From assembly GCA_964493695.1 (NCBI GenBank), contig CAZBPG010000005.1, positions 20,602-84,601 of the forward strand: 64,000 nt of DNA, in the 5' to 3' direction. Both the position numbers and the translations under genes were made by a program. The notes beneath the pieces were generated by a model. That model was given only the letters and a program-made list of their open reading frames with translations, was not told the origin of the DNA and did not search any database. This stretch comes from an uncultured Chitinophaga sp. (GTDB taxonomy: Bacteria; Bacteroidota; Bacteroidia; Chitinophagales; LD1). This document shows positions 21,750 through 61,720 of the stretch, piece after piece; position 1 is the first letter of the stretch; each line of letters begins with the position of its first letter.

Positions 21750-21876
21750 AACATCAAAATTTGAGGCGGTGAAAATAATTATTTGCCTCACACAAACTTT
21801 CTCCTGTCCATTTACAACGTATTCCCTATATTTCGCATCTTTTTTCGAACAATAAACCTTGATTAAGCCAATTTTG

Positions 21877-24800
21877 ATGCGTTTCTACCAGAACCTCTTT
21901 CTTTCAGTTTTTGCCGCTTTACTTTTTTGCCAACCGGTTCTTGCCACTCACAACATGGGTAAAGATATTCAATACGAGTGTCTGGGTTTAGTGGGTGGAA
22001 ACATGCGCTACAAAATTACCATCCGTTACTATCGCAATTGTTGGGATAACCAGTCACAAAGTCAGGCAGTAAATGCACCCACCAGTGTATCTCTACAGGT
22101 TTCTGCGTTAAATTGCACTTTATCACAAACCAACTACACCGTAAATCTTGACCCCGCGGCACAACCTGCCAACGGCACTGAAGTATCACAACTTTGTCCT
22201 TCACAGATTGCCTCCAGCGGTTGCAACTGGACAAGTTCAGGTAATCCCCCTTATCCGGGAGTAGAGATATATACCTATACCAGAACCGTTGACGTGCCAC
22301 CCGGATGTACACAGGTAACTTTCGGCACTACTGATTGTTGTCGCAACGGAGCCATCAACAATATTAACAACCCGGGCGGTGAGGATTTATCTATCAAAGC
22401 AACCGTTAACAACAGTATTGACCCCGCTACCGGTCAGCCATATTGCAACAACTCTGTAGCATTTACCAATCAACCGGTTCCGTTTTTCTGCCTGGGTTCT
22501 AACGTAACCTTCAATCACGGAGCTGTGGATGTGGACGGAGATTCTCTGGTTTATTCCCTGATAAATCCGATGAACGGAGGAACACTCCCATATACCAATA
22601 TTCTGTTTGCAGCAAACTATACGGTAAATTGTCCAATCCGTACAATACCTGCCAACTCTTTCCAGTTTAATACCCAAACAGGGCAAATGCAGTTTGTTCC
22701 GGGCTTTCAGGAACAGGATGTATTAGCGGTTCGCGTGGATGAGTATAGAGATGGTGTGCTGATTGGTTCCACAATGCGCGATATTCAGGTGGTTATTCTT
22801 AACTGCGCTATTGCTATCCCAAATCAGAACCCTATTACCAACGTGCAGAACGGAAATCAGGTAGACTCTTTAAGCGTTCAGGTTTGTCCCGGTACCCCAT
22901 TACGCTTCGATATTCTTTGCACCGACCCGGCCAACCACAACCTCGTTATAACCAGTAATATTAATACCACACCTTCTGCTATTCCGGGAGCAACGATGAC
23001 ACAGGTAGGAACCGGTGATACTGTAACCGCCCGAATTGACTGGACACCCCTGCCGGGCGATACCGGTTGCCATAATTTTGTTTTGACAGCCGAAAATAAC
23101 GATTGCCCCATCAACGGTCAGTATACCAGAGTGTATTCTATTTGTGTTTTTACAGAAGTACAACTGCTTACAGCCAGCACAACGTATTGCGGAACACCGG
23201 TTCAGCTTACAGCCACCGGAGGAACCAATTTTTCATGGATACCCTCCACCGGGCCTAATGGTGTATCAAATCCTAATATTTACAACCCAACAGTTACACC
23301 GGCAACTTCAACCATGTATTATTTCAGTTCCGATTGCGGAACAGATTCTGTGTTTGTAGGAGCCGCTCCTCCTTTCACCTATGATGCGGGACCGGGTGGA
23401 AGTATTTGTCAAAATGGCCAGTTACCGTTGAATGCTACGGTAGATAACCTATATACACCTTATCATTTTCAATGGGTGCCCGGCAATGGCTTATTGGACC
23501 CGATAGCTAACGTACCAAACGATACTGTACCTAATCCGGTAGCAAGTCCGTTGGTAACCACAAAGTATTATCTCTATATAACCGGAGCTAACGGTTGTAC
23601 GAATGTTGACTCAGTTACTGTGAATGTAGCCGGCTCCGGACCTAACATAGTTGCACAGGCACAGCCTACCAACGTCTGTCCGGGCGATCCTGTTAACCTG
23701 AATATTGTTACTAATCCGCAAAGTTGTGGCGTTGCCCAGACTCCATGTACCGGGCATGTTGTGGAAGCGCAGATAGGAACCGGTACAGGTGTAACACCAA
23801 CCGGTTCGGCTACTCAGTATCCAACTATCTACGGCCATTACAGCAGAAGTGCCCGCCATCAGTTTTTGTACTTGCAAAGCGAGTTGAATGCGTTAGCGGG
23901 TTCCGGAGGGACTATTGACAGCATTGCATTTTATATGGATGATGTAACCGGGGTACTGGATACCATGAAGAATTTCGAGATAAAGATGGCATGCACACAA
24001 GCAACTTCATTAACCACCTGGCAACCCAACCTGGTAACAGTTTTTGTTCCCAAGAGTGTCCCGCTAGGAATTGTTGATGGATGGGTAACTCACCGGCTTG
24101 ACTTCCCTTACGATTGGGATGGCTCATCGAACTTGGTAGTGGATGTTTGTTTTGACAATACCGGTAGCCCTACCGTGTTGAATAAGAAAATGCAGATGAC
24201 CCCCACATCATTTTCTTCTGTTTATTATTCAAAGGGAAATACCAGCCAGTGCGGAGTTACAGGTGTACCTACCAGCAGTGTCAACAGACCTAATGCCAAG
24301 TTTAATATTTGTGTTACAGATGTTGCAGGTTTACCCATTTTATGGACACCAAGTGTGGGACCAAATGCGCCAACTCCAGTTGATATCGTAAATCCGGTCG
24401 CGCATCCGGAATCTCCGGTGATTTACGGGGTAGATGTAACTGCTGCAAACGGCTGCCACAGTCAGGATTTTGTTTATATAAATGTAGATACATCAGTTCG
24501 CTTTTATGCATTTCCTATAGACACATTTTTCTGCAATCCGGTGCCGGTTCAGTTGACTACTGTTACTTTTGGAAATCCTTTACCAGGCAATAGTTTTAGT
24601 TATCAATGGACAAATCTTACTACTAACACATCCGCAGGAACCGGTTCGTCTATTACCGTAAATCCAACTACTAACACTGATTATTTAGTCACGCTTACAG
24701 GTGGTACTTGTACTTTGCACGACACTGTTCACGTTAGAACCGGAAACAGCATCCCTGTGAATTTGCTAATCGACTCCATTAGTTGTTTTGGAACAAATGA

Positions 24801-27045: not shown

Positions 27046-28116
27046 ATGAAAAAAGTTTTACCAATCATCCTGATTTTTGCAGCCATGTTAAAGGCATCTG
27101 CACAAGATCCGCACTTCTCTCAATTTTATATGTCGCCACTTTATCTGAATCCCGCTATGACTGGTGCATTCGATGGCAATTATCGCTTAACGGGATTGTT
27201 TCGTGGCCAGTGGGGGTCTATTTTGCAAAATGAGCAAACACCCATGTATCGCACTTATACTTTCAGTGCTGATTTCAGAACCAATAAAGGTTTTGCAAAA
27301 GGTGATGCTTTTGGTTTCGGTGCATCGTTTGTGGGTGATCAAGCTGGTGAATCAAGGTTCGGCTACAATGTTGGCGGACTTGCATTAGCATATCACAAAT
27401 CGTTGAATCAGAAAAATACAAATTATCTCGCGGTAGGATTTTCTTCTCAGATATTCCAACAAACCATTGATTTCTCTCACCTGCAGTTCGGTAGCCAGTG
27501 GGATGGCAGCGCTTATAATTCATTACTTCCTACTAACGAATTTTTAGTAGACAACAAATTTATGTATTGGGATATCAACGCAGGGTTGATGTGGTACATG
27601 AAGATTTCGAAAAGGACAAGTGTTTATTTGGGCGCGTCTGCTTTCCACTTGAATCGTCCGGCTATTTCTTTCCTCGGAGATAAGAATGTAAAGTTGAACA
27701 TGAAGTTTGTGGGTCATGGAGGAATTCGTTTTCCGTTAAAAGGCAGATTCGATATGCAACCAAAGTTCATTTTTATGAACCAGGGCAAATCGATGGAATT
27801 GATTTTGGGTACCGATTTCAGAATTTTGTTTGAAGAAAGATATCCAGATGGCAACCACTTTAAGGCCGGAGCGATGTTCCGCATGGTTGGTGGAGACCCA
27901 AATGCTCCCTGGAGAGATAAAAGAATGGTGGCTGAATCTGTCATCTTGAATGCCGGTGTGGTTTGGAACGGCATTGAGTTAGGAGTAGCGTACGACATTA
28001 ACGTATCACAGCTTATCAGCGGATCTAAATCCAGAGGTGGATTTGAAGTTGGTCTTGCTTACGTTGGTAAATGGAAAAAGAGAGGACCTCAAACTATTTA
28101 CTGCCCAAGATTCTAA
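27046..28116 (+). CDS. type IX secretion system membrane protein, PorP/SprF family
   Basis: 356 aa. After the signal peptide comes AQDPHFSQFYMSPLYLNPAMTGAFDG, the family signature N-terminus. The gene lies directly downstream of a type-B CTD cargo gene. Confidence 0.9.
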   Translation: MKKVLPIILIFAAMLKASAQDPHFSQFYMSPLYLNPAMTGAFDGNYRLTGLFRGQWGSILQNEQTPMYRTYTFSADFRTNKGFAKGDAFGFGASFVGDQAGESRFGYNVGGLALAYHKSLNQKNTNYLAVGFSSQIFQQTIDFSHLQFGSQWDGSAYNSLLPTNEFLVDNKFMYWDINAGLMWYMKISKRTSVYLGASAFHLNRPAISFLGDKNVKLNMKFVGHGGIRFPLKGRFDMQPKFIFMNQGKSMELILGTDFRILFEERYPDGNHFKAGAMFRMVGGDPNAPWRDKRMVAESVILNAGVVWNGIELGVAYDINVSQLISGSKSRGGFEVGLAYVGKWKKRGPQTIYCPRF

Positions 28117-30683: not shown

Positions 30684-31529
30684 ATGACAAATAAGGACGC
30701 AAATGACGAATGGTCACAGGTTTTAGAACCGACTTCTAATCCTTTAAAACTTAACTTTCGCGAGTTGTGGCATTACCGCGATTTGATTTTTCTTTTCGTA
30801 AAAAGAGATTTTGTTGCAGTATACAAGCAAACCGTCTTAGGACCGCTTTGGCATTTTATTCAGCCCCTTTTTGCAAGTGCGGTGTATGTTATCTTTGGCT
30901 CTTTTGCAAATATTCCAACCGATGAACTGCCCCGTGTTTTATTCTGTCTTTCGGGGGTAATACTTTGGAATTATTTCTCATCCTGCCTTACTAAAACATC
31001 CAACACCTTTATTGGTAATGCGCATATTTTCGGCAAAGTGTATTTCCCGCGCTTAGCTATTCCCATTTCAGTTGTCATTTCAAACCTGATGAGTTTTTTC
31101 ATTCAGTTACTGCTGTTAATTCCGTTTCTGTTTTATTACCGCAACAACATTCAACCAAATATTTTTCTGTTTACGCTACCCATATGGGTCGCTGTTATTG
31201 CTATGATGGGACTCGGGTTTGGCGTCATTGTTTCCTCATTAACAATTAAATACCGCGACCTAATTTATCTTATCTCATTCAGTGTACAGTTAGCCATGTA
31301 TGCCACACCGGTCATCTATCCGCTATCATTAATTCCTAAACGATTTCAATTTATTGCTTCGCTTAATCCCGTTTCACCGGTAATGGAAGTCTTCAGATAT
31401 GCTCTTTTGGGTAAAGGAACGTTCACCCATGCAAGCGTTTGGTATAGTATTGGGTTTGCCGTAGCAATTATGGTGATTGGCATTGTACTCTTTAACCAAG
31501 CCGAGAAAGATTTTATGGATACAGTTTAG
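30684..31529 (+). CDS. wzm: ABC-2 type polysaccharide export permease (Wzm-like)
   Basis: 281 aa with about six TM segments. The N-terminal ...WHYRDLIFLFVKRDFVAVYKQTVLGPLW pattern is typical of Wzm/TagG. It is paired with a Wzt-like ATPase. Confidence 0.85.
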   Translation: MTNKDANDEWSQVLEPTSNPLKLNFRELWHYRDLIFLFVKRDFVAVYKQTVLGPLWHFIQPLFASAVYVIFGSFANIPTDELPRVLFCLSGVILWNYFSSCLTKTSNTFIGNAHIFGKVYFPRLAIPISVVISNLMSFFIQLLLLIPFLFYYRNNIQPNIFLFTLPIWVAVIAMMGLGFGVIVSSLTIKYRDLIYLISFSVQLAMYATPVIYPLSLIPKRFQFIASLNPVSPVMEVFRYALLGKGTFTHASVWYSIGFAVAIMVIGIVLFNQAEKDFMDTV

Positions 31530-31537
31530 AAGAAACC

Positions 31538-32779
31538 ATGAGTATTGTAATTAAAGCGGAAACAGTTTCGAAGGTGTACAACTTGGGCACAATTAGTTCC
31601 GGCACATTGGCGCAGGATATCAGTCGGATGTTGGCGCGTATGTCAGGCGAGCAAGATCCTCTGAAAAAAGTGCATGAAAACTACAATGATGATACTATTC
31701 ATGTTGCTCTTCGTGATGTTAATTTTGAAGTAAGGGATGGGGAGGTGCTTGGTATTGTAGGTAAAAATGGAGCCGGCAAAAGCACACTACTTAAAATCCT
31801 TTCACGTATTACTGCGCCTACGCATGGCACTGTTAAGATGAAAGGTAGGGTAGCGAGTTTACTGGAAGTTGGAACTGGATTTCATCCGGAACTTACCGGC
31901 CGTGAGAATATTTATCTGAATGGTGCGATATTGGGTATGTCGCAGGGAGAAGTGACTAGGAAGTTTGATGAGATTGTTGATTTCAGCGGTGTTGAAAAGT
32001 TTATTAACACTCCTGTAAAGCGGTACAGTAGTGGTATGTATGTACGTCTTGCGTTTGCAGTAGCCGCACATTTAGAACCTGAGATTTTGATTGTAGATGA
32101 AGTACTAGCTGTGGGTGATGCTGATTTTCAGAAAAAATGCCTAGGCAAAATGAAAGATGTTTCTGCCAACCAAGGAAGAACAGTGCTATTCGTAAGCCAT
32201 AATATGACTGCTGTAAAAAATCTATGTACCAGGGCTATTTTTCTAAAGCAAGGGCAATTAGTCAAGTCAGGAACTGCCGATGATGTAATAAACCACTACC
32301 AAAGCAATGAGTTTAGGGATAGTTTTGAACAAAGTTGGGAATATGCGCACGCCCCTGGCAATGAGTGGATAAAAGCAAAAAGCATCAGAGCTGTGCCAAA
32401 ATTTTTAGAAGGACAATCAATGATTACACCTGCAACCCCTATCAATATTGAATACGAATTTTGGAGCGAGAAAGAAGAAGAGGACATAAATTTAAGTATG
32501 ACGCTCTACAACGTTTCGGGCGATCCGGTTTTTAATGTAGTGTCACCAATAGTACGAATGAAAAAAGGGTTGCATAAAGGTGTTTGCCGAATTCCGGAAA
32601 ATTTATTGAACGATGATTATTACACTATTTCCATGCTTGCTGTTAGAGAACAGGAACTTCCTCTCTTTTGCCTTGAAAACAGTCTGTCTTTCGAAGTAAT
32701 AGAAGACAGAGCGACCAATAACTGGCATTACAAGTGGGTAGGCTATGTAAGACCCAAACTTGAATTTACTTTGGAATAA
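31538..32779 (+). CDS. wzt: polysaccharide ABC transporter ATP-binding protein with a C-terminal carbohydrate-binding extension (Wzt-like)
   Basis: Walker A is GKNGAGKST, the signature is YSSGMYVRLAF and Walker B is ILIVDEVLAVGD. An extra ~165-aa beta-rich C-terminal domain follows. Confidence 0.9.
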   Translation: MSIVIKAETVSKVYNLGTISSGTLAQDISRMLARMSGEQDPLKKVHENYNDDTIHVALRDVNFEVRDGEVLGIVGKNGAGKSTLLKILSRITAPTHGTVKMKGRVASLLEVGTGFHPELTGRENIYLNGAILGMSQGEVTRKFDEIVDFSGVEKFINTPVKRYSSGMYVRLAFAVAAHLEPEILIVDEVLAVGDADFQKKCLGKMKDVSANQGRTVLFVSHNMTAVKNLCTRAIFLKQGQLVKSGTADDVINHYQSNEFRDSFEQSWEYAHAPGNEWIKAKSIRAVPKFLEGQSMITPATPINIEYEFWSEKEEEDINLSMTLYNVSGDPVFNVVSPIVRMKKGLHKGVCRIPENLLNDDYYTISMLAVREQELPLFCLENSLSFEVIEDRATNNWHYKWVGYVRPKLEFTLE

Positions 32780-33822: not shown

Positions 33823-34557
33823 ATGGTACTTTTTCGAAAAGTTTTGGTGGTATCAGATAACCTTTTTCTTATTAGTCATTTCCATTCTCTGGTAAGTCCG
33901 TTTACCGAAACAGAAGTGACTTACTGTTGCTCTCCGGGTAAAACTTCGTTATTGGACAACCCTTTGCTGCCGGTAAAAGTATTTGCCATTGATATGAAAA
34001 AGGACCAGACCGGATTACCCAGCAAATACGACCTTATTTTTTCATTGCACTGCAAGCAACTTTTTCCTGCTGAATTGATAAAAAAAATAAAGTGCATCAA
34101 TGTTCATCCTGGCTTCAATCCTTACAACCGTGGCTGGTTTCCTCAGGTATTTTCCATTGTAAACGGAATGAAAGCCGGTGCCACCATTCACGAAATTGAT
34201 GAGCAACTAGACCACGGTGCCATCATTGCCCAAAGGGAAGTGCCGATAGAAAGTTACGATACTTCTATGAGCGTATACGAAAAAATTCAAACCGCAGAGG
34301 TAGAATTGCTTAAAGAGAATCTTGAAAATATTCTATCCAACAATTATTCCACCTTTTTACCCAAAGAAGAAGGTAAAGTGAACCTGAAAAAAGATTTTAA
34401 TGCACTTTGCAAGATTGATCTAAACAAAAGAGTAACCATGAAGTGGGCACTTGATTATTTACGAGCATTAACACACGGAGATTACAAAAACGCTTACTTT
34501 ATAGATGAACATACCGGATCAAAAGTTTTTGTAACTCTTCGTTTAGAAAAGGAATAA
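33823..34557 (+). CDS. sugar N-formyltransferase (formyl_transf_N family; WbtJ/VioF/WlaRD-like)
   Basis: 244 aa. CINVHPGFNPYNRGWFP and GATIHEIDEQLDHGAII match the HxxLxP..RG and catalytic Asp regions of formyltransferases. There is no tRNA-binding C-terminal domain. Confidence 0.7.
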   Translation: MVLFRKVLVVSDNLFLISHFHSLVSPFTETEVTYCCSPGKTSLLDNPLLPVKVFAIDMKKDQTGLPSKYDLIFSLHCKQLFPAELIKKIKCINVHPGFNPYNRGWFPQVFSIVNGMKAGATIHEIDEQLDHGAIIAQREVPIESYDTSMSVYEKIQTAEVELLKENLENILSNNYSTFLPKEEGKVNLKKDFNALCKIDLNKRVTMKWALDYLRALTHGDYKNAYFIDEHTGSKVFVTLRLEKE

Positions 34558-53070: not shown

Positions 53071-54921
53071 ATGTGTGGCATTGCCGGGTTTTATTCTTCT
53101 TCAAAAAAAATAAGCGAGATTGATTTGCGCATGATGACGGATACATTACGTCATCGGGGACCTGATGCCTGTGGCTATTATTTCAACGAAGAGAATACCG
53201 TAGGTTTAGGTCATCGAAGATTGAGCATTATTGATTTAAGCGAAGCCGCCAATCAACCTATGTTTTCTAACAGTAAGAGATACGTGGTCGTGTTTAACGG
53301 AGAGGTATACAATTTTCGTGAGATAGCAAAACAACTTAACATTTCACCACAAACAGCCAGTGATACTGAAATTATCATTGAGGCGTTTGAAAAGAAAGGA
53401 GCAGGATTTGTTCATTTGCTCAACGGCATGTTCGCCATTGCTATTTATGATACGCTGGAAAGAAAAACATTTCTCTTCCGTGACCGCCTTGGAGTGAAAC
53501 CCCTCTACTACTTCTCCAATGAAAAAACTTTTGCCTTTAGCTCTGAAATAAAAGCACTACTGAAAAGTGATTTTGTTTCACAAAACGTTCAGCTGAACAA
53601 AAGAACCATTTCTACTTTTTTATATGCTGGCTACATTCCTGAACCATTCACTATTTACAACAACATTCATCGCCTTCCTTCAGGTAGTTACGTAATAGTA
53701 AGTGAAACTGGTGCAGAAGTAAATAGCTATTGGAAAGCTGAAGAGAAGGTTTCAACTAAGGTAAATTCAGATTTCAAATCAGCTAAAGAAGAGCTAAAGA
53801 ATCTTCTTGTTTCTTCCGTTCGCTACCGTATGATAAGCGATGTACCTTTCGGGACTTTCTTAAGTGGCGGCATTGATTCAAGTACTGTTACAGCTATTGC
53901 ACAGAGCATATCAGACAAACCGGTTAAAACCTTTTCGATAGGTTTTAAAGAGGCTAAATTTAACGAAAGTGAATATGCCAGAAAAGTTTCAAGGCATCTT
54001 GGTACACAACATCATGAATTTATTGTGAGTGAAGGCGATGCGATGGAATTGATAGACAAAATGATGACAGTATATGATGAACCGTTTGCCGATTCATCAG
54101 CATTGCCTACCATGCTGGTTTCAAAACTTGCCCGACAACATGTAACCATGACGTTAAGTGGTGATGGTGGTGATGAATTGTTTATGGGCTATGGCGCGTA
54201 TGATTGGGCAAGGCGACTTGATAATCCGTTAGTGAAACTGTTGCGGGAACCACTCGCTACTTCTCTCTCGCTATTAGGCAACCGGTATAAACGTGGTGCG
54301 CAAGTATTTAATTACAAAAGCGAAGCGCATAAAAAAAGTCACATTTTTTCGCAAGAACAGTATTTTTTCAGCGAAGATGAATTGACTGATTTGCTAGCCG
54401 AAGATTTCAAAATTGACCCTTTGTTTAAAGAGAACTTTAGTACAGAAAGAATACTATCAGCAGCGGAAAAGCAGGCGTTGTTTGATGTTAAGTATTACCT
54501 GAAAGACGATTTACTTGTGAAAGTAGATATTGCCAGTATGCAATTTTCGCTTGAAACACGCACACCATTCTTAGATTACCGTGTAGTTGAGTTTGCGCTG
54601 AATCTTTCGGAAGATTTAAAAAAGAAAGACGGCACTTCTAAATATTTACTCAGGGAAGTGCTTTATGATTATGTCCCGAAAGAATTTTTTAACCGTCCTA
54701 AATGGGGTTTCTCAATCCCATTGGCAAAATGGCTAAAAACGGACTTGCATTATTTGATTGAAAAATATTTGAACGAAGAGACAGTTGCTGCGTGCAGCGC
54801 TATGAATTTTGAGAAAGTAAAATCGCTTGTTACCCGATTTGAAACAGGAGAGGATTATTTATTCAATCGCATTTGGGTTTTAACTCTACTACACCGGTGG
54901 CTTAAAGAAAATTCTAAATGA
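53071..54921 (+). CDS. asparagine synthase (glutamine-hydrolysing) family amidotransferase, WbpS-like
   Basis: MCGIAGFY provides the N-terminal Cys nucleophile. LSGGIDSS is the PP-loop. The length is 616 aa. Confidence 0.9.
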   Translation: MCGIAGFYSSSKKISEIDLRMMTDTLRHRGPDACGYYFNEENTVGLGHRRLSIIDLSEAANQPMFSNSKRYVVVFNGEVYNFREIAKQLNISPQTASDTEIIIEAFEKKGAGFVHLLNGMFAIAIYDTLERKTFLFRDRLGVKPLYYFSNEKTFAFSSEIKALLKSDFVSQNVQLNKRTISTFLYAGYIPEPFTIYNNIHRLPSGSYVIVSETGAEVNSYWKAEEKVSTKVNSDFKSAKEELKNLLVSSVRYRMISDVPFGTFLSGGIDSSTVTAIAQSISDKPVKTFSIGFKEAKFNESEYARKVSRHLGTQHHEFIVSEGDAMELIDKMMTVYDEPFADSSALPTMLVSKLARQHVTMTLSGDGGDELFMGYGAYDWARRLDNPLVKLLREPLATSLSLLGNRYKRGAQVFNYKSEAHKKSHIFSQEQYFFSEDELTDLLAEDFKIDPLFKENFSTERILSAAEKQALFDVKYYLKDDLLVKVDIASMQFSLETRTPFLDYRVVEFALNLSEDLKKKDGTSKYLLREVLYDYVPKEFFNRPKWGFSIPLAKWLKTDLHYLIEKYLNEETVAACSAMNFEKVKSLVTRFETGEDYLFNRIWVLTLLHRWLKENSK

Positions 54922-56147
54922 CGGAGGTGCTTTATATGAGTTATGATGGGATGACTGATCCACTTGGGCAAAGTCAGGTTATTCCCTATTTACAGGGGCT
55001 TTCAAAACTTGGATTTCATTTTACGCTCATCAGTTTCGAAAAAAAAGAACGTTTTAATAAATCCGGAAATCAGATTTCTGAACTTCTCAAACAAAGCAAC
55101 ATTGATTGGGTACCGCTTTACTACACCAAAAATCCACCTATACTTTCTACTATCTACGATGTAGTAAGACTAAGGAGCAAAGCATTTAAATTGTATAAGC
55201 AAAAGAAATTTCAAATAGTTCACTGCCGGAGCTACATTTCATCGCTGGTTGGTTTGGTGATGAAGAAAAAATTTGGCGTGAAATTCATTTTTGATATGCG
55301 TGGCTTTTATGCCGATGAACGTGTAGATGGCGGCCTATGGAAGTTGAACAATCCGCTTTATAAAATGGTTTACGATTTTTTTAAACGAAAAGAAAAACAG
55401 TTTTTGTCTAATGCCGATTACACCATCTGTTTGACCGAAAACGGGAAACGCGAAATACAATCTTGGAAGGAAATTCCGAACCAGCCTATTTCTATTCAAG
55501 TAATACCTTGTTGTGCTGATTTAGAAAAATTTTCTCCTGCTCAAGTTGACAAAACAAAACTGCAAGAATTACGAACTCAATTTTCGATTCATGAAAATGA
55601 TTTTGTGCTAAGTTATCTCGGAAGCGTTGGCACTTGGTACATGTTAGATGAGATGCTTGATTTCTTCAGATGCCTTTTGGAAAAAAAGCCAAATGCAAAA
55701 TTTCTTTTTATTACTAACGAACCTGCCTCGTTAATTCTTGATAGATCGCAAGAAAAAAATATTCCAACAGACAAATTTGTTATCACTCCATCTCCTCATC
55801 CTTTAGTTCCGACATACCTGACGCTATCATCAGTTTCCATTTTTTTTATCAAACCTGTTTTCTCAAAACGCGCTTCATCCCCTACTAAGCAGGGCGAAAT
55901 TATGGGTATGGGCATTCCTTATGTTTGTAATACTGGTGTTGGTGATGTAGATGAAATAACAGTAGATACAAATTCGGGTTTTGCAATAAAAGAATTTTCG
56001 AAAAAGGAATATGAATACGCAATCCAAAAAATTCTAACAGAAAGGATGATTTCTGAAAAAATTCGGCAGGGAGGGATTAAGTACTTCTCATTGGAGCAGG
56101 GAGTGGTGAAATATTTTTATGTTTATCAGAATATTTTATTCCCATGA
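54918..56147 (+). CDS. glycosyltransferase (GT4-like)
   Basis: YMSYDGMTDPLGQSQVIPYL is at the N-terminus and SPTKQGEIMGMGIPYVCNTGVGD at the C-terminus. It has an ATGA overlap with the upstream gene. Confidence 0.65.
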   Translation: MTEVLYMSYDGMTDPLGQSQVIPYLQGLSKLGFHFTLISFEKKERFNKSGNQISELLKQSNIDWVPLYYTKNPPILSTIYDVVRLRSKAFKLYKQKKFQIVHCRSYISSLVGLVMKKKFGVKFIFDMRGFYADERVDGGLWKLNNPLYKMVYDFFKRKEKQFLSNADYTICLTENGKREIQSWKEIPNQPISIQVIPCCADLEKFSPAQVDKTKLQELRTQFSIHENDFVLSYLGSVGTWYMLDEMLDFFRCLLEKKPNAKFLFITNEPASLILDRSQEKNIPTDKFVITPSPHPLVPTYLTLSSVSIFFIKPVFSKRASSPTKQGEIMGMGIPYVCNTGVGDVDEITVDTNSGFAIKEFSKKEYEYAIQKILTERMISEKIRQGGIKYFSLEQGVVKYFYVYQNILFP

Positions 56148-57472
56148 AATTGAAAGATATTTTTGAAAAACATCCACTTAGCATTTCTCTGTCTTTATTC
56201 ACCTTTGCCTTTATTGTTTCCAGAATTCTCTTCCTGATATGCCCTTTTGTTGAAATTTCATATGACAGCATTGAGTATTCTAACTTTTTTGATCTTTATC
56301 TTTCTCAGGGCAAACTACCACCTAACGATTATACGCCACTAGGATACCCATTTCTTGTTAAATGTATCTCTTTAGTAAGTAATTCTGTATACGTCATTAT
56401 CGGCTTACAAATGCTTATAGATTATCTAGTATGTGCGTTAGTGCTTTTTTCCATTAGTAAGTTTTATAGACCCACTTATTCCATACTTACCTCAATTGCG
56501 CTATCTTTTTTCATTCTGTCTCCTAACAATGTTTATTATGATGTTTCCGTACTTTCTGAATCTCTTTATAATTCCAGTTTAGTTTTCATAGTTGCATCTG
56601 CCATCTGGGCAGTAAACAGCAAAGAAAAATGGGCATGGCAGTTGCTATCTCTTTCCTTAGCACTACCTGTATTATTTAGACCTAATGGTTTGTTCACTGT
56701 TATCCTCATTTTTTTCGCAATTTCATATTTGTTTTTTAACGCCCGTAAAACAATTTATGTTTTCGCAACTCCATTTTTATCTATTTGGCTTCTACTAAGC
56801 GCATATTCTTATTTTGCGAATGGAGAGTTTTCGGTTATAAGTTCAAAACGTGTAAAGGGATCTACTGCTACAACAGCAGGTAAAAAAAGAATCGAACAAG
56901 CCTCTGAAGAAATTGTATTCCGTTTCATAAAAAGAATAGCTCCGCACTACAACCATTTCAATAACCAGCGTTCTTTTTACCATAAACTTGAGGATTTGAA
57001 GAGAAAATATATCGACCAACAGTATGTAAAAAAGGTGAGCGAAACAGAAGAATTTTTCTTCCCCCTCACTGAAGTTGAAAAAAAAAGAGCGTTTAAAGAG
57101 TTTTACGACACTACCCATCTTAAGCAACTCGCCCAAAAACAGCAAACTATTACTCAAGGATTTTTCTTTAAAATTTTTGATTTCTATCAGTTAAAATTTG
57201 AAAGCAAGTTTGTTACTAATTACATTTGGCAATGGATAATGGTGCTCGCATTTATGTATTCCTTTTTCATTCTTATCCAGACCCGATTTACGAATGCAAC
57301 AGCTTTTTTGTTATTCTTTGTGATTGCCATAAACATTGGAACTAACCTCATCTCCATTCTTTCCACACAACGACAACTACCTCGGTATGAATATCCTGCC
57401 GAATTTTTGTTTCATTTGTCCATAGTATTTTTGATTGTACTTGTACAGGAAAGAAGAGGGCATGTTCAATAA
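56144..57472 (+). CDS. polytopic membrane protein, possible GT-C-fold glycosyltransferase
   Basis: 442 aa with multiple TM segments. The first-loop region DSIEYSNF...PPNDYTPLGYPFLV is reminiscent of ArnT/PMT-type GT-C enzymes. An internal soluble segment is present. The functional call is weak. Confidence 0.45.
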   Translation: MKLKDIFEKHPLSISLSLFTFAFIVSRILFLICPFVEISYDSIEYSNFFDLYLSQGKLPPNDYTPLGYPFLVKCISLVSNSVYVIIGLQMLIDYLVCALVLFSISKFYRPTYSILTSIALSFFILSPNNVYYDVSVLSESLYNSSLVFIVASAIWAVNSKEKWAWQLLSLSLALPVLFRPNGLFTVILIFFAISYLFFNARKTIYVFATPFLSIWLLLSAYSYFANGEFSVISSKRVKGSTATTAGKKRIEQASEEIVFRFIKRIAPHYNHFNNQRSFYHKLEDLKRKYIDQQYVKKVSETEEFFFPLTEVEKKRAFKEFYDTTHLKQLAQKQQTITQGFFFKIFDFYQLKFESKFVTNYIWQWIMVLAFMYSFFILIQTRFTNATAFLLFFVIAINIGTNLISILSTQRQLPRYEYPAEFLFHLSIVFLIVLVQERRGHVQ

Positions 57473-58559
57473 TAAAACAATAGCAGTAGTAGTACCTGCA
57501 TATAACGAGGAAAAACAAATTGCTTTGGTTATTGAATCAATGCCGGCATTTGTTGACCGGATTATTGTTGTTAACGATTGTTCAAAAGACAAAACATCAG
57601 AAATAGTAAAAGGATTTTTTTCTTCTGGCTTCAATAAAAGCTCACTCACCATTTCTCCCATTCAACCGATTAAACAAACATCGTTCAACTATGCTGATAG
57701 AATTGTGGAGCAGGAAATGAAAAGAGAGTTAAGCGAACTTTTACCTTCAGAAATTGTTAATACAAATCAAATTTCTGATAGAATTATTTTAATAGAGCAA
57801 AAAAAAAATGGTGGGGTGGGCGCAGCTGTAGCCAGAGGCTACAAATGGTGCAAAGACCACAATATTGATTGTATTGCCAAAGTAGATGGTGACGGGCAAA
57901 TGGATCCTACAGAACTGGAAGGTATTTGCAAGCCCGTGGTGGAAGAAGATATTGACTACGTAAAAGGCAACCGGTTAATTCATCGTAGTGCATGGCTGGT
58001 AATTCCGAAAATACGTTACTTGGGAAATTCTGTTTTGTCAATCATGACAAAAATTTCTTCGGGCTACTGGCATGTATCCGATACACAAACAGCTTTTACT
58101 GCCATCTCTTTAAAAGCATTAAACGGAATAAACCTACGAGATATATATAGTACCTATGGTTATCCGAACGATATGCTTGTGAAACTGAATATATCTATGT
58201 GTACTCTTAGAGAAGTGGAGATTAAACCTGTTTACAATATAGGCGAAAACTCTAAAATGAAAATTGCAAAAGTTATTCCATTGGTATCGTGGCTGTTGTT
58301 TAAGTCGTTTTTCAAACGGCTTTGGATAAAATACTTGTTCCGCGATTTTCACCCGCTGTTTTTACTTTATAATTTTTCATTCATTCTTGGCGGCATTTGG
58401 CTGCATTATCTATACAAAGTTACGCTAGCTTTTATTCACGGACAAAATGTTTCGTTCGAAACACTTTTTGCTTTTTCATTTTTAGGCATCAGTGCGTTTC
58501 AGTCGTTGCTTTTTGCCATGTGGATGGATATACAGGATAATGAGCGCCTATATAAATAA
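57462..58559 (+). CDS. GT2 polyprenyl-phosphate glycosyltransferase-like enzyme (GtrB/ArnC/DPM1 type) with C-terminal TM helices
   Basis: IAVVVPAYNEEKQI...IIVVNDCSKDKT is followed by DGDGQMDP..L and VKGNR. Hydrophobic segments follow (VIPLVSWLLFKSFF, LFLLYNFSFILGGIWLHYLY, FSFLGISAFQSLLFAMWM). Confidence 0.75.
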   Translation: MFNNKTIAVVVPAYNEEKQIALVIESMPAFVDRIIVVNDCSKDKTSEIVKGFFSSGFNKSSLTISPIQPIKQTSFNYADRIVEQEMKRELSELLPSEIVNTNQISDRIILIEQKKNGGVGAAVARGYKWCKDHNIDCIAKVDGDGQMDPTELEGICKPVVEEDIDYVKGNRLIHRSAWLVIPKIRYLGNSVLSIMTKISSGYWHVSDTQTAFTAISLKALNGINLRDIYSTYGYPNDMLVKLNISMCTLREVEIKPVYNIGENSKMKIAKVIPLVSWLLFKSFFKRLWIKYLFRDFHPLFLLYNFSFILGGIWLHYLYKVTLAFIHGQNVSFETLFAFSFLGISAFQSLLFAMWMDIQDNERLYK

Positions 58560-58568
58560 CAGATTATC

Positions 58569-60566
58569 ATGTGTGGAATTTTTGGAATTATTAGGTCAAA
58601 GGAATCTACCCTTAGCGAGACCCTTGTAAAAAAAATTGCTACCGATTTGTTTCTGTTGTCTGCCTCGCGCGGCAAGGAAGCTTCGGGCTTTGCGCTATAT
58701 ACCAATGAGCAAATAACCATTTACAAAACACCCTACCACCCGAAAGATTTAATTGCTTCTGCCGGATATAAAAAAATAATCAGCGAAAAAAATCTGGTAA
58801 ACGTTCGTGCTGTTATCGGGCACTCGCGCATGGTTACTAACGGTACCGAATACTCTAACGTAAATAACCAGCCGTTTGTAAAAAATAATATAACCGGCAT
58901 ACACAACGGTATTATTGTAAACGAAGCCGACATCTGGAAAAAATATTCTACTGAAGAAAGAATTTCGGATTTAGACAGCGAGGTTATTCCAACTATTATC
59001 CGGCACGGGTTGAATAATGGAAGCAATCTTTCACAAGCCCTTGAGTTGCTTTATAAAGAAATTCACGGCATGGCATCTATTGCTTTGATGTTTGCCGATT
59101 TAGAAAACATTGTGTTAGCCACCAATAATGGCTCTCTTTATTTCAACGTTTCAAAGTCCGGGAATGAAATTGTATTCGCCTCCGAAAATTTTATTCATCG
59201 CGAGCTTATACATAAAAGCAATATCCAAAACTTGTTTGCCGAAGAAACCATTCGTAAAATTCAGCCTAATGAATTTTGCTGTATCAGCCTGAGCAATTTA
59301 TCGCGCGAACTAAAAACTGCTGACGAAATTTCGAAGGGGCAGATTTTTTCGAACACACAAAAACGTGAAGCGTTAAAAATAATTGATAAATCCTCCACAG
59401 GTCGCGATTATAAAAATTCAATTACTCCTTATCATTTACCGGCATCGTTTGAACAGCATTATCAACGTTGCAAAGACCGTATTTCAGCACTGAAACGCTG
59501 TACTAAATGTTTGTTGCCCGAAACCTTCCCAAACATTGTTTATGATTCAGGAGGTGTTTGCTCTTATTGCAACAATTACCAACCGTACTTACCAAAACCC
59601 GAAAGTGAGTTGATTAAAATTGCGAACCGAGTAAAGAAAAAAAATGGCCGACCTGACTGCCTGGTGGCATTTAGCGGTGGGAGAGACAGCAGTTATAGTT
59701 TGCATTATCTGAAAAATTTAGGTTTAAACCCGTTGGCGTTTTCTTACGACTGGGGAATGATAACCGACCTAGCAAGAAGAAACCAGTCGCGCATTTGTGC
59801 CAAGTTGGGTATTGAGCATATTCTTGTTTCGGCTGACATTAGAAAGAAAAGGCAGAACGTAAGATTGAATGTATCGGCATGGTTGAATAAGCCGAGTTTG
59901 GGAACTATTCCGCTTTTTATGGCGGGCGACAAGCAGTATTTTTATTATGCCGATGTAATAAAAAAGCAAAACGGGCTTGACACCACATTCATGGGCGAGA
60001 ACCATTTAGAAAAGACAGGATTTAAAACAGCGTTCAGTGGGGCAAAGCAGGAAGATGCCGGTTTTATGGCGTACCATATTTCTACGGCCAATAAATTGCG
60101 AATGGTTTCTTTTTACATGAAAGAATATTTAACCAACCCTGCGTATATCAATCAATCGTTGCTGGATACTGCCGGTGCATTTTTTTCTTACTACGGCTTA
60201 AAACACGACTACATCAATATCTTCGATTATCTGAAATGGGACGAAACAACTGTTTCAAAAACTATCATTGACGAGTATGACTGGGAGCTATCGCCCGATA
60301 CAGCTTCTACCTGGCGCATTGGCGATGGCACTGCTCCTTTTTATAATTACATCTATTATGTGGTAACCGGTTTTACCGAAAACGATACTTTCAGAAGCAA
60401 CCAGATACGTGAAGGCTCTTTAACGCGCGAAGAAGCGTTGGCATTATCGCTCCGCGATAATTATCCGCGTTGGGAATCCATTAAATGGTACTGCGATACC
60501 ATTGGTATTGATTTTGAAAAAACAATTGGCATCATTAATAATATCCCCGTGCTGTGGACGAGTTAA
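58569..60566 (+). CDS. fusion protein: N-terminal class II (Ntn) glutamine amidotransferase domain plus C-terminal N-acetyl-sugar amidotransferase (WbuX/WbpG/PseA family PP-loop enzyme)
   Basis: The N-terminal domain shows MCGIFGII, GHSRMVTNG, NNQPF, IHNGIIVN and LDSEVI, which are GlmS/PurF-type glutaminase motifs. The C-terminal domain shows CTKCLLPETFPNIVYDSGGVCSYCNNY and the PP-loop LVAFSGGRDSS. Confidence 0.8.
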   Translation: MCGIFGIIRSKESTLSETLVKKIATDLFLLSASRGKEASGFALYTNEQITIYKTPYHPKDLIASAGYKKIISEKNLVNVRAVIGHSRMVTNGTEYSNVNNQPFVKNNITGIHNGIIVNEADIWKKYSTEERISDLDSEVIPTIIRHGLNNGSNLSQALELLYKEIHGMASIALMFADLENIVLATNNGSLYFNVSKSGNEIVFASENFIHRELIHKSNIQNLFAEETIRKIQPNEFCCISLSNLSRELKTADEISKGQIFSNTQKREALKIIDKSSTGRDYKNSITPYHLPASFEQHYQRCKDRISALKRCTKCLLPETFPNIVYDSGGVCSYCNNYQPYLPKPESELIKIANRVKKKNGRPDCLVAFSGGRDSSYSLHYLKNLGLNPLAFSYDWGMITDLARRNQSRICAKLGIEHILVSADIRKKRQNVRLNVSAWLNKPSLGTIPLFMAGDKQYFYYADVIKKQNGLDTTFMGENHLEKTGFKTAFSGAKQEDAGFMAYHISTANKLRMVSFYMKEYLTNPAYINQSLLDTAGAFFSYYGLKHDYINIFDYLKWDETTVSKTIIDEYDWELSPDTASTWRIGDGTAPFYNYIYYVVTGFTENDTFRSNQIREGSLTREEALALSLRDNYPRWESIKWYCDTIGIDFEKTIGIINNIPVLWTS

Positions 60567-60598
60567 TCAACGTACGAGCCGGTGTATCAAACCAGAAA

Positions 60599-61720
60599 AT
60601 GAATATTTGCGTAATAACCAGTAGTTTTCCTATAAATGATGCGGATCCGATGGGAGGTTTTGCATATGACTTTTGTTTAGAATTGGCAAAAACAAATAAG
60701 GTTACTGTTATTACACAAAAAAGAACCGGCAATTACCAAATAAATAAAAACCTGAATTTGATTGTTTTTGACTGGGCAGGCAAAGATGCTGCTTTAGCAG
60801 AGCTGAATTTTTTTAACATCCGGCACCTGTTTTATGTTTTCAGTTTCTTTATTAATGGAGAGAAAGCTATTAGAAATTATGCCCGTCAAAACAAAGTTGA
60901 TTACTGCTTTGCTCTGTGGGCACTTCCTTCAGGAATAGGGGCATACTACCTGAGGAGTAGGTTTAAAGTGCCATATGATGTTTGGTGTTTGGGCTCCGAT
61001 ATATGGGATCATAAAAATAACCAAGTAACTAACCCTTTCTTAAAGGCAATTCTTAAAACCGCTAAGAATGTTTATGCCGATGGTTTCAACTTTGCGGAAG
61101 AAGTAAAGGAATTCAGCAATCGCGAATGTAAGTTCTTGCCCACCTCCCAAAAATTACCGGTCCACTCAACTTTAAACAAACCTTTAGAAGTAGCGAGTAA
61201 GACCTTCATTTTCATAGGGAGATATCATCCTAACAAAGGACCGGATGTATTGATAGAGGCTATTTCCATTTTACCGGAAGAAATCAATAAAAATTCCCGG
61301 TTTGTTTTCTACGGTGAAGGTGTTTTGAAAAAGTCAATGGAAGACCGGGTAGCTGAACTTAATCTAAAGAATGTCATCATTAACGACCTCGTTGACAAAA
61401 ATGAGATATTTAAAGTTTTCTCCGAATCACACTTCATTATTATTCCTTCCAGATTTGACAGTATCCCTGTAATCCTTTCCGATGCTTTGCAAGGAAATAC
61501 ACCAATGATTGGTGCCATTACCGGTGATTTGGGAGATGTAATCAAGGATTATCAATTAGGATATACTTTTGAAAGAGAAAATACTTTAGAATTAAGCCGG
61601 GTAATTGAGAAAGCCTTTTATGACAAAAAAGAGAATTATCTTGAAAGCATTAACAAGGCAAAGGCAATTTTTTCGGTAGAAGGTGCGGTAAAGGAATTCG
61701 TAAATAACATAAAGATATGA
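60599..61720 (+). CDS. glycosyltransferase (GT4-like)
   Basis: MNICVITSSFPINDADPMGGFAYDF is at the N-terminus and IIIPSRFDSIPVILSDALQGNTPMIG at the C-terminus. The ATG at 60599 is preferred to the extended track ORF. Confidence 0.7.
   Translation: MNICVITSSFPINDADPMGGFAYDFCLELAKTNKVTVITQKRTGNYQINKNLNLIVFDWAGKDAALAELNFFNIRHLFYVFSFFINGEKAIRNYARQNKVDYCFALWALPSGIGAYYLRSRFKVPYDVWCLGSDIWDHKNNQVTNPFLKAILKTAKNVYADGFNFAEEVKEFSNRECKFLPTSQKLPVHSTLNKPLEVASKTFIFIGRYHPNKGPDVLIEAISILPEEINKNSRFVFYGEGVLKKSMEDRVAELNLKNVIINDLVDKNEIFKVFSESHFIIIPSRFDSIPVILSDALQGNTPMIGAITGDLGDVIKDYQLGYTFERENTLELSRVIEKAFYDKKENYLESINKAKAIFSVEGAVKEFVNNIKI

What the first reader, a model, noticed from the sequence alone, without database searches (positions are those of the whole stretch)
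58569..60566. Self-contained acetamidino synthase? Ntn-type glutaminase fused to a WbuX/WbpG-family N-acetyl-sugar amidotransferase
The C-terminal ~390 aa carry the Cys-rich N-terminal motif (CTKCLLPE...GGVCSYC) and the SGGRDS PP-loop of the WbuX/WbpG/PseA/LfnA family, which converts sugar N-acetyl groups to acetamidino groups. In the loci I know (P. aeruginosa O5 wbpG, E. coli O145 wbuX) ammonia is supplied by separate HisH/HisF-like (class I GATase) partners. No hisH/hisF-like gene is present in this window. Instead the enzyme has an N-terminal ~270-aa class II (N-terminal Cys, GlmS/PurF/AsnB-type) glutaminase domain. That would swap the ammonia-delivery module by gene fusion. I am not aware that this domain architecture has been characterised.
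Basis: partly seen in the sequence, partly recalled or inferred. Interest (0 to 1): 0.6.

Follow-up and report, generated by a model that had tools for sequence, protein, structure and literature searches.

The report
Sugar amidotransferase with built-in glutaminase
This gene encodes one protein that joins a glutamine-splitting domain to a divergent relative of the enzymes that make positively charged acetamidino sugars; it belongs to a large, unstudied family that travels with a lipid-carrier sugar transferase, not with the usual HisH/HisF helper proteins.

Summary
ORF 58569-60566 (+) encodes 665 aa: an intact class II (Ntn, Cys2) glutaminase, then a Cys4 zinc ribbon and an SGGRDS PP-loop domain related to WbuX/NASAT. 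It is not a frameshift artefact. Thousands of full-length relatives exist, in at least 592 species genomes across many phyla, and this scan flagged the family before on other DNA. The AlphaFold model is one rigid body (pLDDT 96.4, pTM 0.95). The genome has no hisH or true hisF, so ammonia supply is self-contained.

The idea of a simple swap of the ammonia module is only partly supported:
- The C-domain scores below the TIGR03573 cut-off (131.6 vs 203.2 bits).
- It forms its own clade.
- It shares 14 of 81 family-invariant positions with canonical NASATs.
- In four loci, including the 94%-identical ortholog, it sits beside a complete canonical WbuX+HisH+HisF2 set.

Its conserved partner is an ArnC/GtrB-like polyprenyl-phosphate GT2: 61 of 81 fusion loci against 0 of 20 canonical loci.

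Best reading: a glutamine- and ATP-dependent amidotransferase, probably amidine-forming, serving a lipid-carrier sugar decoration module. Substrate and product are unproven, and I found no paper describing the family.

The parts
58569..60566 (+). Whole gene: 665-aa fusion protein (P0001), stop codon included
   Evidence: Full-length homologs. AF2 pLDDT 96.4, pTM 0.95.
58572..59333 (+). Residues 2-255: class II (Ntn) glutaminase domain with the Cys2 nucleophile, R87, T90, N113-G114 and D136
   Evidence: Pfam GATase_6/7 over their cut-offs. Alignment to GlmS 1xff. VIA-align Z 27, rmsd 2.2 A, 223 residues aligned to the GlmS glutaminase domain. Residues invariant in 112 sequences.
59334..59486 (+). 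Residues 256-306: poorly conserved but ordered linker (strand 270-273, helix 292-305)
   Evidence: Consensus lines of A1 and A3. pLDDT 80-98 and secondary structure.
59499..59570 (+). Residues 311-334: Cys4 zinc-ribbon motif CxxC...GxCxxC
   Evidence: C311 is invariant and C314, C331 and C334 are at least 90% conserved. The motif is defined for NASATs and binds zinc in 8WEX (PMC10607449).
59673..59690 (+). Residues 369-374: PP-loop SGGRDS (ATP pyrophosphatase signature)
   Evidence: Invariant in 112 sequences. Weak QueC, TilS and ArgG PP-loop hits at 363-435.
59487..60563 (+). Residues 307-665: NASAT-like PP-loop amidotransferase domain (divergent sister clade of TIGR03573)
   Evidence: TIGR03573 at 131.6 bits, below the cut-off of 203.2. 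8wex E 2.2e-10. VIA-align Z 23.7, rmsd 3.5 A, 290 residues aligned. Separate clade.
57435..58559 (+). Upstream partner: ArnC/GtrB/DPMS-like polyprenyl-phosphate glycosyltransferase (GT2) with C-terminal TM helices; the likely true start is ATG 57462; it ends 9 nt before the fusion gene
   Evidence: The profile of 24 orthologs matches ArnC (1e-39), DPMS and GtrB over the full length. Present in 61 of 81 fusion loci against 0 of 20 canonical loci.
56144..57472 (+). Polytopic membrane protein (442 aa, about 7-9 TM) overlapping the GT2 start; candidate GT-C-type transferase, unproven
   Evidence: No Pfam or NCBIfam family. One database homolog. AF2 pLDDT 49.5, too poor for fold comparison.
60554..61720 (+). 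Downstream GT4 glycosyltransferase overlapping the fusion gene's 3' end by 13 nt (same operon)

Best explanation
The gene encodes a self-contained, glutamine- and ATP-dependent sugar amidotransferase.

Supported by sequence and model:
- An N-terminal Ntn glutaminase (Cys2) with a complete GlmS-type glutamine site.
- A C-terminal NASAT-fold domain with a Cys4 zinc ribbon and an SGGRDS PP-loop.
- The two halves modelled as one rigid body.
- No HisH/HisF in the genome.

Inferred from established PP-loop amidotransferase chemistry (GMP synthetase, NAD synthetase, AsnB, NASAT): glutamine is hydrolysed at Cys2, and the ammonia passes inside the protein to the PP-loop site. There ATP adenylates a carbonyl oxygen of the substrate and ammonia displaces AMP. 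The most likely carbonyl is that of a sugar N-acyl (acetamido) group, which would give a cationic amidine.

Inferred from context: the enzyme is not a stand-in for WbuX+HisH+HisF2. It is a paralogous family working with a co-transcribed ArnC/GtrB-like polyprenyl-phosphate GT2. Its substrate would then be either the nucleotide sugar that this GT2 loads onto the lipid carrier or the polyprenyl-phosphate sugar itself, destined for transfer to a surface glycan.
For: Intact and conserved catalytic sets in both halves. Domain folds: GlmS glutaminase Z 27 and LpNASAT 8wex Z 23.7 (Foldseek). Single rigid model, pLDDT 96.4, pTM 0.95. No hisH or hisF in a genome that is 100% complete by markers. The fusion is conserved in thousands of proteins, at least 592 species genomes and many phyla.

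Context: an ArnC-like GT2 lies within 8 kb in 61 of 81 fusion loci. In 53 loci it is upstream on the same strand, and in 23 the gap is 30 nt or less. The same GT2 is found in 0 of 20 canonical WbuX loci, which instead carry HisH (16 of 20) and HisF2 (16 of 20). The GT2 profile matches ArnC, DPMS and GtrB over the full length. A Wzx/MOP flippase occurs in 33 of 78 loci, and PMT_2 GT-C and MprF-like TM proteins occur in CPR loci. There is a documented precedent for GT2 + Wzx + GT-C decoration of an ABC-exported polymer: GacI/J/K/L (bioRxiv 10.1101/180810). The window has Wzm/Wzt and a MOP flippase just past its end.
Against: No biochemical data exist for any family member, so substrate and product are inferred. 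The C-domain is below the TIGR03573 cut-off and shares only 14 of 81 invariant positions with canonical NASATs, so the reaction could differ from acetamidino formation. About a quarter of fusion loci lack the ArnC-like GT2 within 8 kb. The upstream polytopic protein could not be shown to be GT-C. The flippase near the window is only weakly similar to the one that accompanies the fusion elsewhere. The control set of canonical loci comes from one phylum, and related genomes are not independent.
Confidence: 0.6

Rival explanations
1. One reading: a direct functional equivalent of WbuX/WbpG+HisH+HisF. It would convert an N-acetyl group of a nucleotide sugar made by this cluster (for example a 2,3-diacetamido sugar) into an acetamidino group, and the GT2 linkage would be incidental.
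For: NASAT fold and motifs. The cluster encodes a WecB-like 2-epimerase, a GFO/IDH/MocA dehydrogenase, two DegT aminotransferases and a hexapeptide acyltransferase, which is WbpB/E/D/I-like logic. No hisH or hisF in the genome. Similar pathway genes lie near the fusion in 12-14 of 78 loci. Bordetella avium carries a family member named 'LPS biosynthesis protein', and from memory (Larocque et al. 2003, not verifiable here) its O-chain contains 2-acetamidino residues.
Against: The fusion coexists with a complete canonical WbuX+HisH+HisF2 set in the same cluster in L004 (the 94% ortholog), L054, L079 and G640. The clade is separate and the pocket residues differ. The GT2 linkage is specific: 61 of 81 against 0 of 20. 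No nucleotide-sugar 6-dehydrogenase lies in the window.
Confidence: 0.25
2. The same two-domain machinery performs a different amidation: a carboxylate to a carboxamide (uronic acid to uronamide), a formamido to a formamidino group, or a non-sugar carbonyl.
For: Only scaffold motifs are shared with canonical NASATs and the score is below the family cut-off. PP-loop enzymes adenylate many kinds of carbonyl (established knowledge). The window encodes a sugar N-formyltransferase (33823-34557), and the partner GT2 is nearest to ArnC, which handles a formamido sugar.
Against: An AsnB-type amidotransferase, the usual uronamide former, is already encoded five genes upstream (53071-54921; TIGR01536 475.5 bits). 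The closest fold by far for the C-half is a NASAT (Z 23.7 against about 13.7 or less for LarE, the next non-NASAT PP-loop fold listed). SAM methyltransferases lie within 3 genes in 26 of 55 well-flanked loci, which fits N-methylation of an amidine as in Legionella (from memory), though that is weak evidence.
Confidence: 0.13
3. Artefact: two adjacent genes joined by a sequencing frameshift, or a decayed glutaminase domain.
For: None found. A few shorter forms (362-416 aa, e.g. P0304) exist in the database.
Against: Thousands of collinear full-length homologs. Invariant Cys2 and glutamine-site residues. A confident single-body model. All relatives found in genome searches have open frames of 648-711 aa without stops.
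Confidence: 0.01

Closest known systems
Canonical N-acetyl sugar amidotransferases (NASAT, TIGR03573: WbuX of E. coli O145, WbpG of P. aeruginosa O5, LpNASAT / PDB 8WEX) working with HisH and HisF2/WbuZ/AglZ
   Same: Cys4 zinc ribbon, SGGxDS PP-loop and overall fold (Z 23.7, rmsd 3.5 A, 290 residues aligned, 23% identity). Located in surface-polysaccharide clusters.
   Different: Below the family cut-off (131.6 vs 203.2 bits). Separate clade on a long branch. Only 14 of 81 invariant positions shared. Carries its own class II glutaminase in place of class I HisH plus the HisF2 barrel. Partner is an ArnC-like GT2, not HisH/HisF2. Coexists with the canonical trio in four loci.
Asparagine synthetase B family (AsnB, WbpS-like, beta-lactam synthetase, TsnB9): Ntn glutaminase fused to a PP-loop synthetase
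   Same: The same design principle: an N-terminal Cys glutaminase followed by an ATP pyrophosphatase domain in one chain. N-domain Z about 21.
   Different: TIGR01536 scores 21.8 bits against a cut-off of 267.1. The rigid-body alignment covers only the N-domain (194 residues). The C-domain has a NASAT fold with a zinc ribbon, not the AsnB synthetase domain. A true AsnB paralog is encoded separately in the same cluster (53071-54921).
GlmS / PurF class II amidotransferases
   Same: Best structural match for residues 2-255 (Z 26-27.5, rmsd 2.2-2.5 A) with a conserved glutamine site.
   Different: The acceptor domains (sugar isomerase, PRTase) are unrelated to the PP-loop domain here. Database names such as 'GlmS', 'PurF' or 'AsnB' given to family members are mislabels.
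Multi-component polyprenyl-phosphate glycosylation systems (ArnC/ArnD/ArnT; GtrA/B/C; GacI/J/K/L)
   Same: The co-transcribed GT2 matches ArnC, GtrB and DPMS over the full length. Flippase-type and GT-C-type membrane proteins recur nearby. ArnD gives a precedent for N-acyl editing on the lipid-linked sugar (established knowledge), and GacK for a Wzx flippase in such a system.
   Different: No known system of this kind contains an amidotransferase. The GT-C component in this window is unproven.

Membership tests
NASAT / TIGR03573 (WbuX family) | Tetracysteine motif CXXCXn[GN]XCXXC (binds zinc in 8WEX) | tested here: met
   C311-x2-C314 ... G329-V-C331-x2-C334, conserved in 112 sequences. Motif definition from PMC10607449.
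NASAT / TIGR03573 (WbuX family) | PP-loop SGGXDS | tested here: met
   SGGRDS 369-374, invariant.
NASAT / TIGR03573 (WbuX family) | Score at or above the curated family cut-off (203.2 bits) | tested here: not met
   131.6 bits. Scores in the phylum sample fall in separate bands: canonical 187-387 bits, fusion type 133-143 bits.
NASAT / TIGR03573 (WbuX family) | Fold like LpNASAT (8WEX) | tested here: met
   VIA-align Z 23.7, rmsd 3.5 A, 290 of 388 residues aligned, model 307-665. Foldseek E 1.3e-12.
NASAT / TIGR03573 (WbuX family) | Genomic association with HisH and HisF2/WbuZ ammonia-supply partners | tested here: not met
   No hisH or hisF in the genome. HisH in 3 of 81 fusion loci against 16 of 20 canonical loci.
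NASAT / TIGR03573 (WbuX family) | Converts a sugar N-acetyl group to an acetamidino group | not testable with these tools
   Needs an enzyme assay or glycan NMR/MS.
Class II (Ntn) glutamine amidotransferases | N-terminal nucleophile Cys directly after the initiator Met | tested here: met
   MCGIFG. C2 invariant in 112 sequences.
Class II (Ntn) glutamine amidotransferases | Glutamine-site and oxyanion residues (GlmS Arg73, Thr76, Asn98, Gly99, Asp123) | tested here: met
   R87, T90, N113, G114 and D136 align to them. All invariant.
Class II (Ntn) glutamine amidotransferases | Pfam GATase_6/GATase_7 over the gathering score, and Ntn fold | tested here: met
   40.9 and 38.5 bits against cut-offs of 25 and 27. 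Z 27 to 1xff.
Asparagine synthetase B family (TIGR01536) | Score over the family cut-off, with an AsnB-type synthetase domain | tested here: not met
   21.8 bits against 267.1. The C-half is NASAT-like, not AsnB-like.
Three-component polyprenyl-phosphate glycosylation module | GtrB/ArnC/DPMS-type polyprenyl-phosphate GT2 adjacent | tested here: met
   Gene 57435-58559. The ortholog profile matches ArnC at 1e-39 and GtrB at 4e-35, covering profile positions 5-289 of 296.
Three-component polyprenyl-phosphate glycosylation module | Dedicated flippase | tested here: inconclusive
   No flippase lies in the operon. A MOP/Wzx gene lies about 6.6 kb downstream, beyond the window, and is only weakly similar to the flippase cluster seen in 33 of 78 loci.
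Three-component polyprenyl-phosphate glycosylation module | GT-C fold transferase | tested here: inconclusive
   The polytopic protein 56144-57472 has no family hit and the model is too poor (pLDDT 49.5). Bona fide PMT_2 GT-C genes accompany the fusion in some CPR loci.

The most novel reading that the evidence does not exclude
The fusion family is the signature enzyme of an undescribed, widespread lipid-carrier decoration system. An ArnC/GtrB-like GT2 puts an N-acyl amino sugar on polyprenyl phosphate. The glutaminase-NASAT fusion converts its N-acyl group to a cationic amidine, before or after loading, by analogy with ArnD editing of Und-P-Ara4FN. A flippase and a GT-C enzyme then attach the positively charged sugar to surface glycans. 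This would be a second, Arn-like route for adding positive charge to the cell envelope, in phyla ranging from Bacteroidota to CPR bacteria.
Probability: 0.33. Interest if true: 0.75.

Novelty: new variant of a known kind. Interest (0 to 1): 0.55.

Why it matters
Acetamidino sugars put positive charge on O-antigens, capsules and flagellar glycans. How the amidine is made is still poorly understood even for the canonical WbuX/HisH/HisF2 system, where one crystal structure exists and the structure paper calls the family's functional properties little known (PMC10607449).

A single-chain, glutamine-driven relative is a much simpler object for working out the chemistry: one protein, no partner subunits, and a very confident model. 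Its consistent pairing with a polyprenyl-phosphate glycosyltransferase suggests an unrecognised class of lipid-carrier sugar modification. The family is large and is currently mislabelled as GlmS, PurF or AsnB in public databases, so a correct name would fix many annotations.

Tried and rejected
- Complex prediction of the fusion protein with the adjacent GT2 (residues 10-344) gave no verdict: score 0.00, mark 0.32. It is neither evidence for nor against binding.
I could not view the loci of the Bordetella avium, Leptospira ryugenii or Aliarcobacter butzleri members, nor of the apparently unfused 392-aa form P0304.
- Sampling 401 Burkholderiales genomes did not include B. avium. Sampling 151 genomes of the Ignavibacteria-type class found only fused forms. 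Whether unfused forms have a separate glutaminase gene remains open.
- The B. avium genome paper (PMC1540077) is not held, and no held paper links B. avium with acetamidino. That link rests on memory only.
- The upstream polytopic protein had only one database homolog, and its AF2 model was too poor (pLDDT 49.5) to search, so the GT-C claim was not tested.
- Whole-chain fold matches: none in the PDB (TMq 0.38 or less). This says only that no solved chain has this two-domain arrangement among Foldseek's candidates.
- The frameshift/artefact reading is rejected (see rival explanations).
- An ammonia tunnel could not be examined because model coordinates are not exposed.
Full report
**1. Observation**

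Window 58569-60566 (+) is one open frame of 665 aa beginning MCGIFG.
- Pfam GATase_7 and GATase_6 match residues 77-206 above their gathering scores. NCBIfam glmS and purF models align from residue 1-2 to about 246.
- TIGR03573 (WbuX, N-acetyl sugar amidotransferase) aligns over residues 309-648, nearly the whole profile, at 131.6 bits. That is below the curated cut-off of 203.2.

**2. Not an artefact, and not rare**
The best 120 hits are all 649-677 aa, 49-93% identical, with about 100% coverage.
- Against representatives at 50% identity there are 505 clusters at E<=1e-30, and the best 150 are nearly all full-length fusions.
They span Bacteroidota, Ignavibacteriota, Chloroflexota, Planctomycetota, Acidobacteriota, Patescibacteria, Omnitrophota, Pseudomonadota, Verrucomicrobiota and Myxococcota.
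- Cultured carriers include Bosea sp. WAO and Oceanibacterium hippocampi, and Bordetella avium, Leptospira ryugenii and Aliarcobacter butzleri.
- Within single groups the family is patchy: 4 of 301 genomes sampled in the window's phylum, 2 of 401 Burkholderiales and 5 of 151 in an Ignavibacteria-type class.
- Public sources name these proteins GlmS, PurF, AsnB or 'hypothetical'.
- Earlier notes of this scan flagged the same family on other DNA at least ten times.

**3. Anatomy**

In 112 aligned family members the invariant or near-invariant residues include C2, R87, T90, N113, G114, D136, C311, C314, C331, C334 and S369-G-G-R-D-S374.

Alignment to the E. coli GlmS glutaminase domain pairs the glutamine-site residues as follows:

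| This protein | GlmS |
|---|---|
| C2 | Cys1 |
| R87 | Arg73 |
| T90 | Thr76 |
| N113-G114 | Asn98-Gly99 |
| D136 | Asp123 |

The AlphaFold2 model built on that alignment has mean pLDDT 96.4 and pTM 0.95, so the two halves are modelled as one fixed body. Structure comparison gives:

| Match | Z | rmsd | Residues aligned | Model region |
|---|---|---|---|---|
| GlmS glutaminase domain (1xff) | 27 | 2.2 A | 223 | N-half |
| Legionella NASAT (8WEX) | 23.7 | 3.5 A | 290 | 307-665 |
| AsnB | about 21 | - | 194 | N-domain only |

AsnB has the same design principle but aligns only through its N-domain, and no solved chain matches the whole architecture. The 8WEX paper defines the family by the Cys4 zinc site and the PP-loop. 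It does not discuss the ammonia source.

**4. Ammonia supply**

The window's genome is 100% complete by marker genes, in 198 contigs. It has no match to the HisH family, and its best HisF match is 32 bits against a cut-off of 294.55. A separate HisH/HisF partner is therefore excluded here, as far as an assembly in contigs allows. The built-in glutaminase is the only visible ammonia source.

**5. Not a simple module swap**

Four results argue that this family is a paralog with its own job, not WbuX with a new glutaminase.
- (a) Score gap. In 301 genomes of the phylum, canonical WbuX genes score 187-387 bits. Fusion-type genes score 133-143 bits in open frames of 668-698 aa.
- (b) Separate clade. 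In a tree of 44 fusion C-domains and 11 canonical NASATs, the fusion domains form one clade (SH-aLRT 96) on a long branch. This was a quick tree rooted at the midpoint, so it shows separation, not direction.
- (c) Different conserved residues. Of 81 positions at least 93% conserved in the fusion C-domains, only 14 are shared with the canonical enzymes: the four Cys, the PP-loop and a few Gly/Asn/Arg.
- (d) Coexistence. L004 is the 94%-identical ortholog with the same upstream gene order. There the fusion gene is followed within 3 kb by HisH (240 bits), AglZ/HisF2 (367 bits, over its cut-off) and a canonical WbuX (261.6 bits, over its cut-off). The same trio lies near the fusion in L054, L079 and G640.

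**6. Conserved context**

I clustered all ORFs of 80 related loci plus the window.
- The most conserved neighbour by far is a GT2 of about 320 aa with about two C-terminal TM helices. With a profile threshold it lies within 8 kb in 61 of 81 fusion loci. It is upstream on the same strand in 53, and the gap is 30 nt or less in 23.
- In the window this GT2 is gene 57435-58559, which ends 9 nt before the fusion gene.
- A profile of 24 of these GT2s matches ArnC (1e-39), archaeal DPMS (2e-35) and GtrB (4e-35), covering profile positions 5-289 of 296 for ArnC and GtrB. It is therefore a polyprenyl-phosphate sugar synthase.
- Control: 20 canonical WbuX loci from the same phylum sample have HisH in 16, HisF2 in 16 and this GT2 type in none. 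Fisher p is about 2e-10. Related genomes are not independent, and the control is from one phylum.
- Other recurrent neighbours:
  - a Wzx/MOP flippase in 33 of 78 loci;
  - SAM methyltransferases within three genes in 26 of 55 well-flanked loci, and a protein with at least 7 TM helices in 46 of 55;
  - in CPR loci, an MprF-flippase-like TM protein plus a PMT_2 GT-C enzyme;
  - a DUF354/MurG-like GT-B.
- This arrangement mirrors known multi-component polyprenyl-phosphate glycosylation systems. The GacI/J/K/L system is a documented example that combines a GtrB-like GT2, a Wzx-type flippase, a GT-C enzyme and an ABC-exported backbone.
- The window also encodes Wzm/Wzt (30684-32779). A MOP flippase lies just beyond its end, though it is only weakly like the flippase cluster seen elsewhere.
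- The polytopic protein upstream of the GT2 (56144-57472) may be the transferase. It has no family hit, only one database homolog and a poor model, so this is unproven.

**7. Mechanism**
- Supported by sequence and model: intact glutaminase and PP-loop/zinc sites in one rigid protein, no external glutaminase partner, and operon linkage to a polyprenyl-phosphate GT2.
- Inferred from PP-loop amidotransferase chemistry: glutamine hydrolysis at Cys2, internal ammonia transfer, adenylation of a substrate carbonyl and displacement of AMP by ammonia.
- Inferred from the NASAT relationship: the carbonyl belongs to a sugar N-acyl group and the product is an amidine.
- Inferred from context: the sugar is the one carried by the GT2, and it is modified either as a nucleotide sugar or on the lipid carrier. 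ArnD editing of Und-P-Ara4FN is the precedent for the latter (established knowledge).
- Alternatives are given as rival explanations: a direct WbuX equivalent acting on a cluster-made nucleotide sugar, or a different amidation such as uronamide or formamidine.
- An AsnB-type amidotransferase in the same cluster (53071-54921) makes the uronamide role less likely for this gene.

**8. Literature and novelty**

Ten full-text searches found no paper describing this architecture. A B. avium study places a GT2 (BAV0086) in the putative O-antigen cluster and shows rough LPS when it is mutated. The B. avium family member CAJ47689.1 is named 'LPS biosynthesis protein', but I could not view that locus.

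The family is best classed as a new variant of a known kind: a NASAT-like PP-loop amidotransferase with a built-in class II glutaminase and a distinct genomic partner.

**9. Verdict**

The family is widespread, unnamed and unstudied. Interest is moderate: the fusion itself has been seen repeatedly in this scan. The separation from the canonical system and the tight link to a lipid-carrier glycosyltransferase give a concrete, testable hypothesis.

Noticed in passing
L004:11998-15722; also L054:15183-17996, L079:18095-20265, L133 (G640:C10): A complete canonical acetamidino module (HisH, AglZ/HisF2, and WbuX above its cut-off) sits a few kb from the fusion gene in four genomes, including the 94%-identical ortholog. 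The window's own genome lacks it.
   Followed up: yes
whole genome G000 (window = C5:20602-84601): No hisH and no true hisF anywhere in a genome scored 100% complete. The organism may be a histidine auxotroph, or those genes may lie in unassembled gaps.
   Followed up: partly
L004:11998-13053, L011:11937-13055, L018:11944-13002, L037:11976-13043, L063:12006-13046, L077:11920-13044: A DUF354 / MurG-like GT-B protein of about 350 aa lies directly downstream of the fusion gene in six loci, several of which lack the ArnC-like GT2. It may be an alternative partner. It is not present in this window.
   Followed up: partly
window 57435-58559: The window's ArnC-like GT2 carries an insertion of about 60 aa (roughly residues 63-123) that splits the Pfam GT2 match in two. 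It is 60-66% identical to other Bacteroidota orthologs of similar length (364-366 aa).
   Followed up: no
L034, L038, L062, L068 (e.g. L034:11905-13317): Several copies of B12-binding radical SAM enzymes flank the fusion gene in some uncultured or CPR loci, which hints at further tailoring (for example C-methylation) of the same sugar.
   Followed up: no
window 33823-34557: A sugar N-formyltransferase with the C-terminal dimerisation domain lies next to Wzm/Wzt (30684-32779), so the cluster probably also makes a formamido sugar.
   Followed up: no
window 21859-26892 and 27046-28116: A 1677-aa SprB-repeat protein with a CHU_C type IX secretion signal, followed by PorP/SprF. This marks the organism as a gliding or T9SS-bearing Bacteroidota.
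   Followed up: no
L141:2971-4200 (G000:C5:87170-88399, minus strand): A MOP/Wzx-type flippase lies just beyond the window in a cluster that already has an ABC exporter. That would fit flipping of a polyprenyl-phosphate sugar, but it is only weakly similar to the flippase that accompanies the fusion elsewhere.
   Followed up: partly
database proteins P0304, P0318, P0344, P0375: Apparently unfused C-domain-only forms (382-415 aa, 54-59% identical to the window's C-domain) exist. One was seen on 15 contigs. Whether a separate glutaminase gene lies next to them could not be checked.
   Followed up: partly
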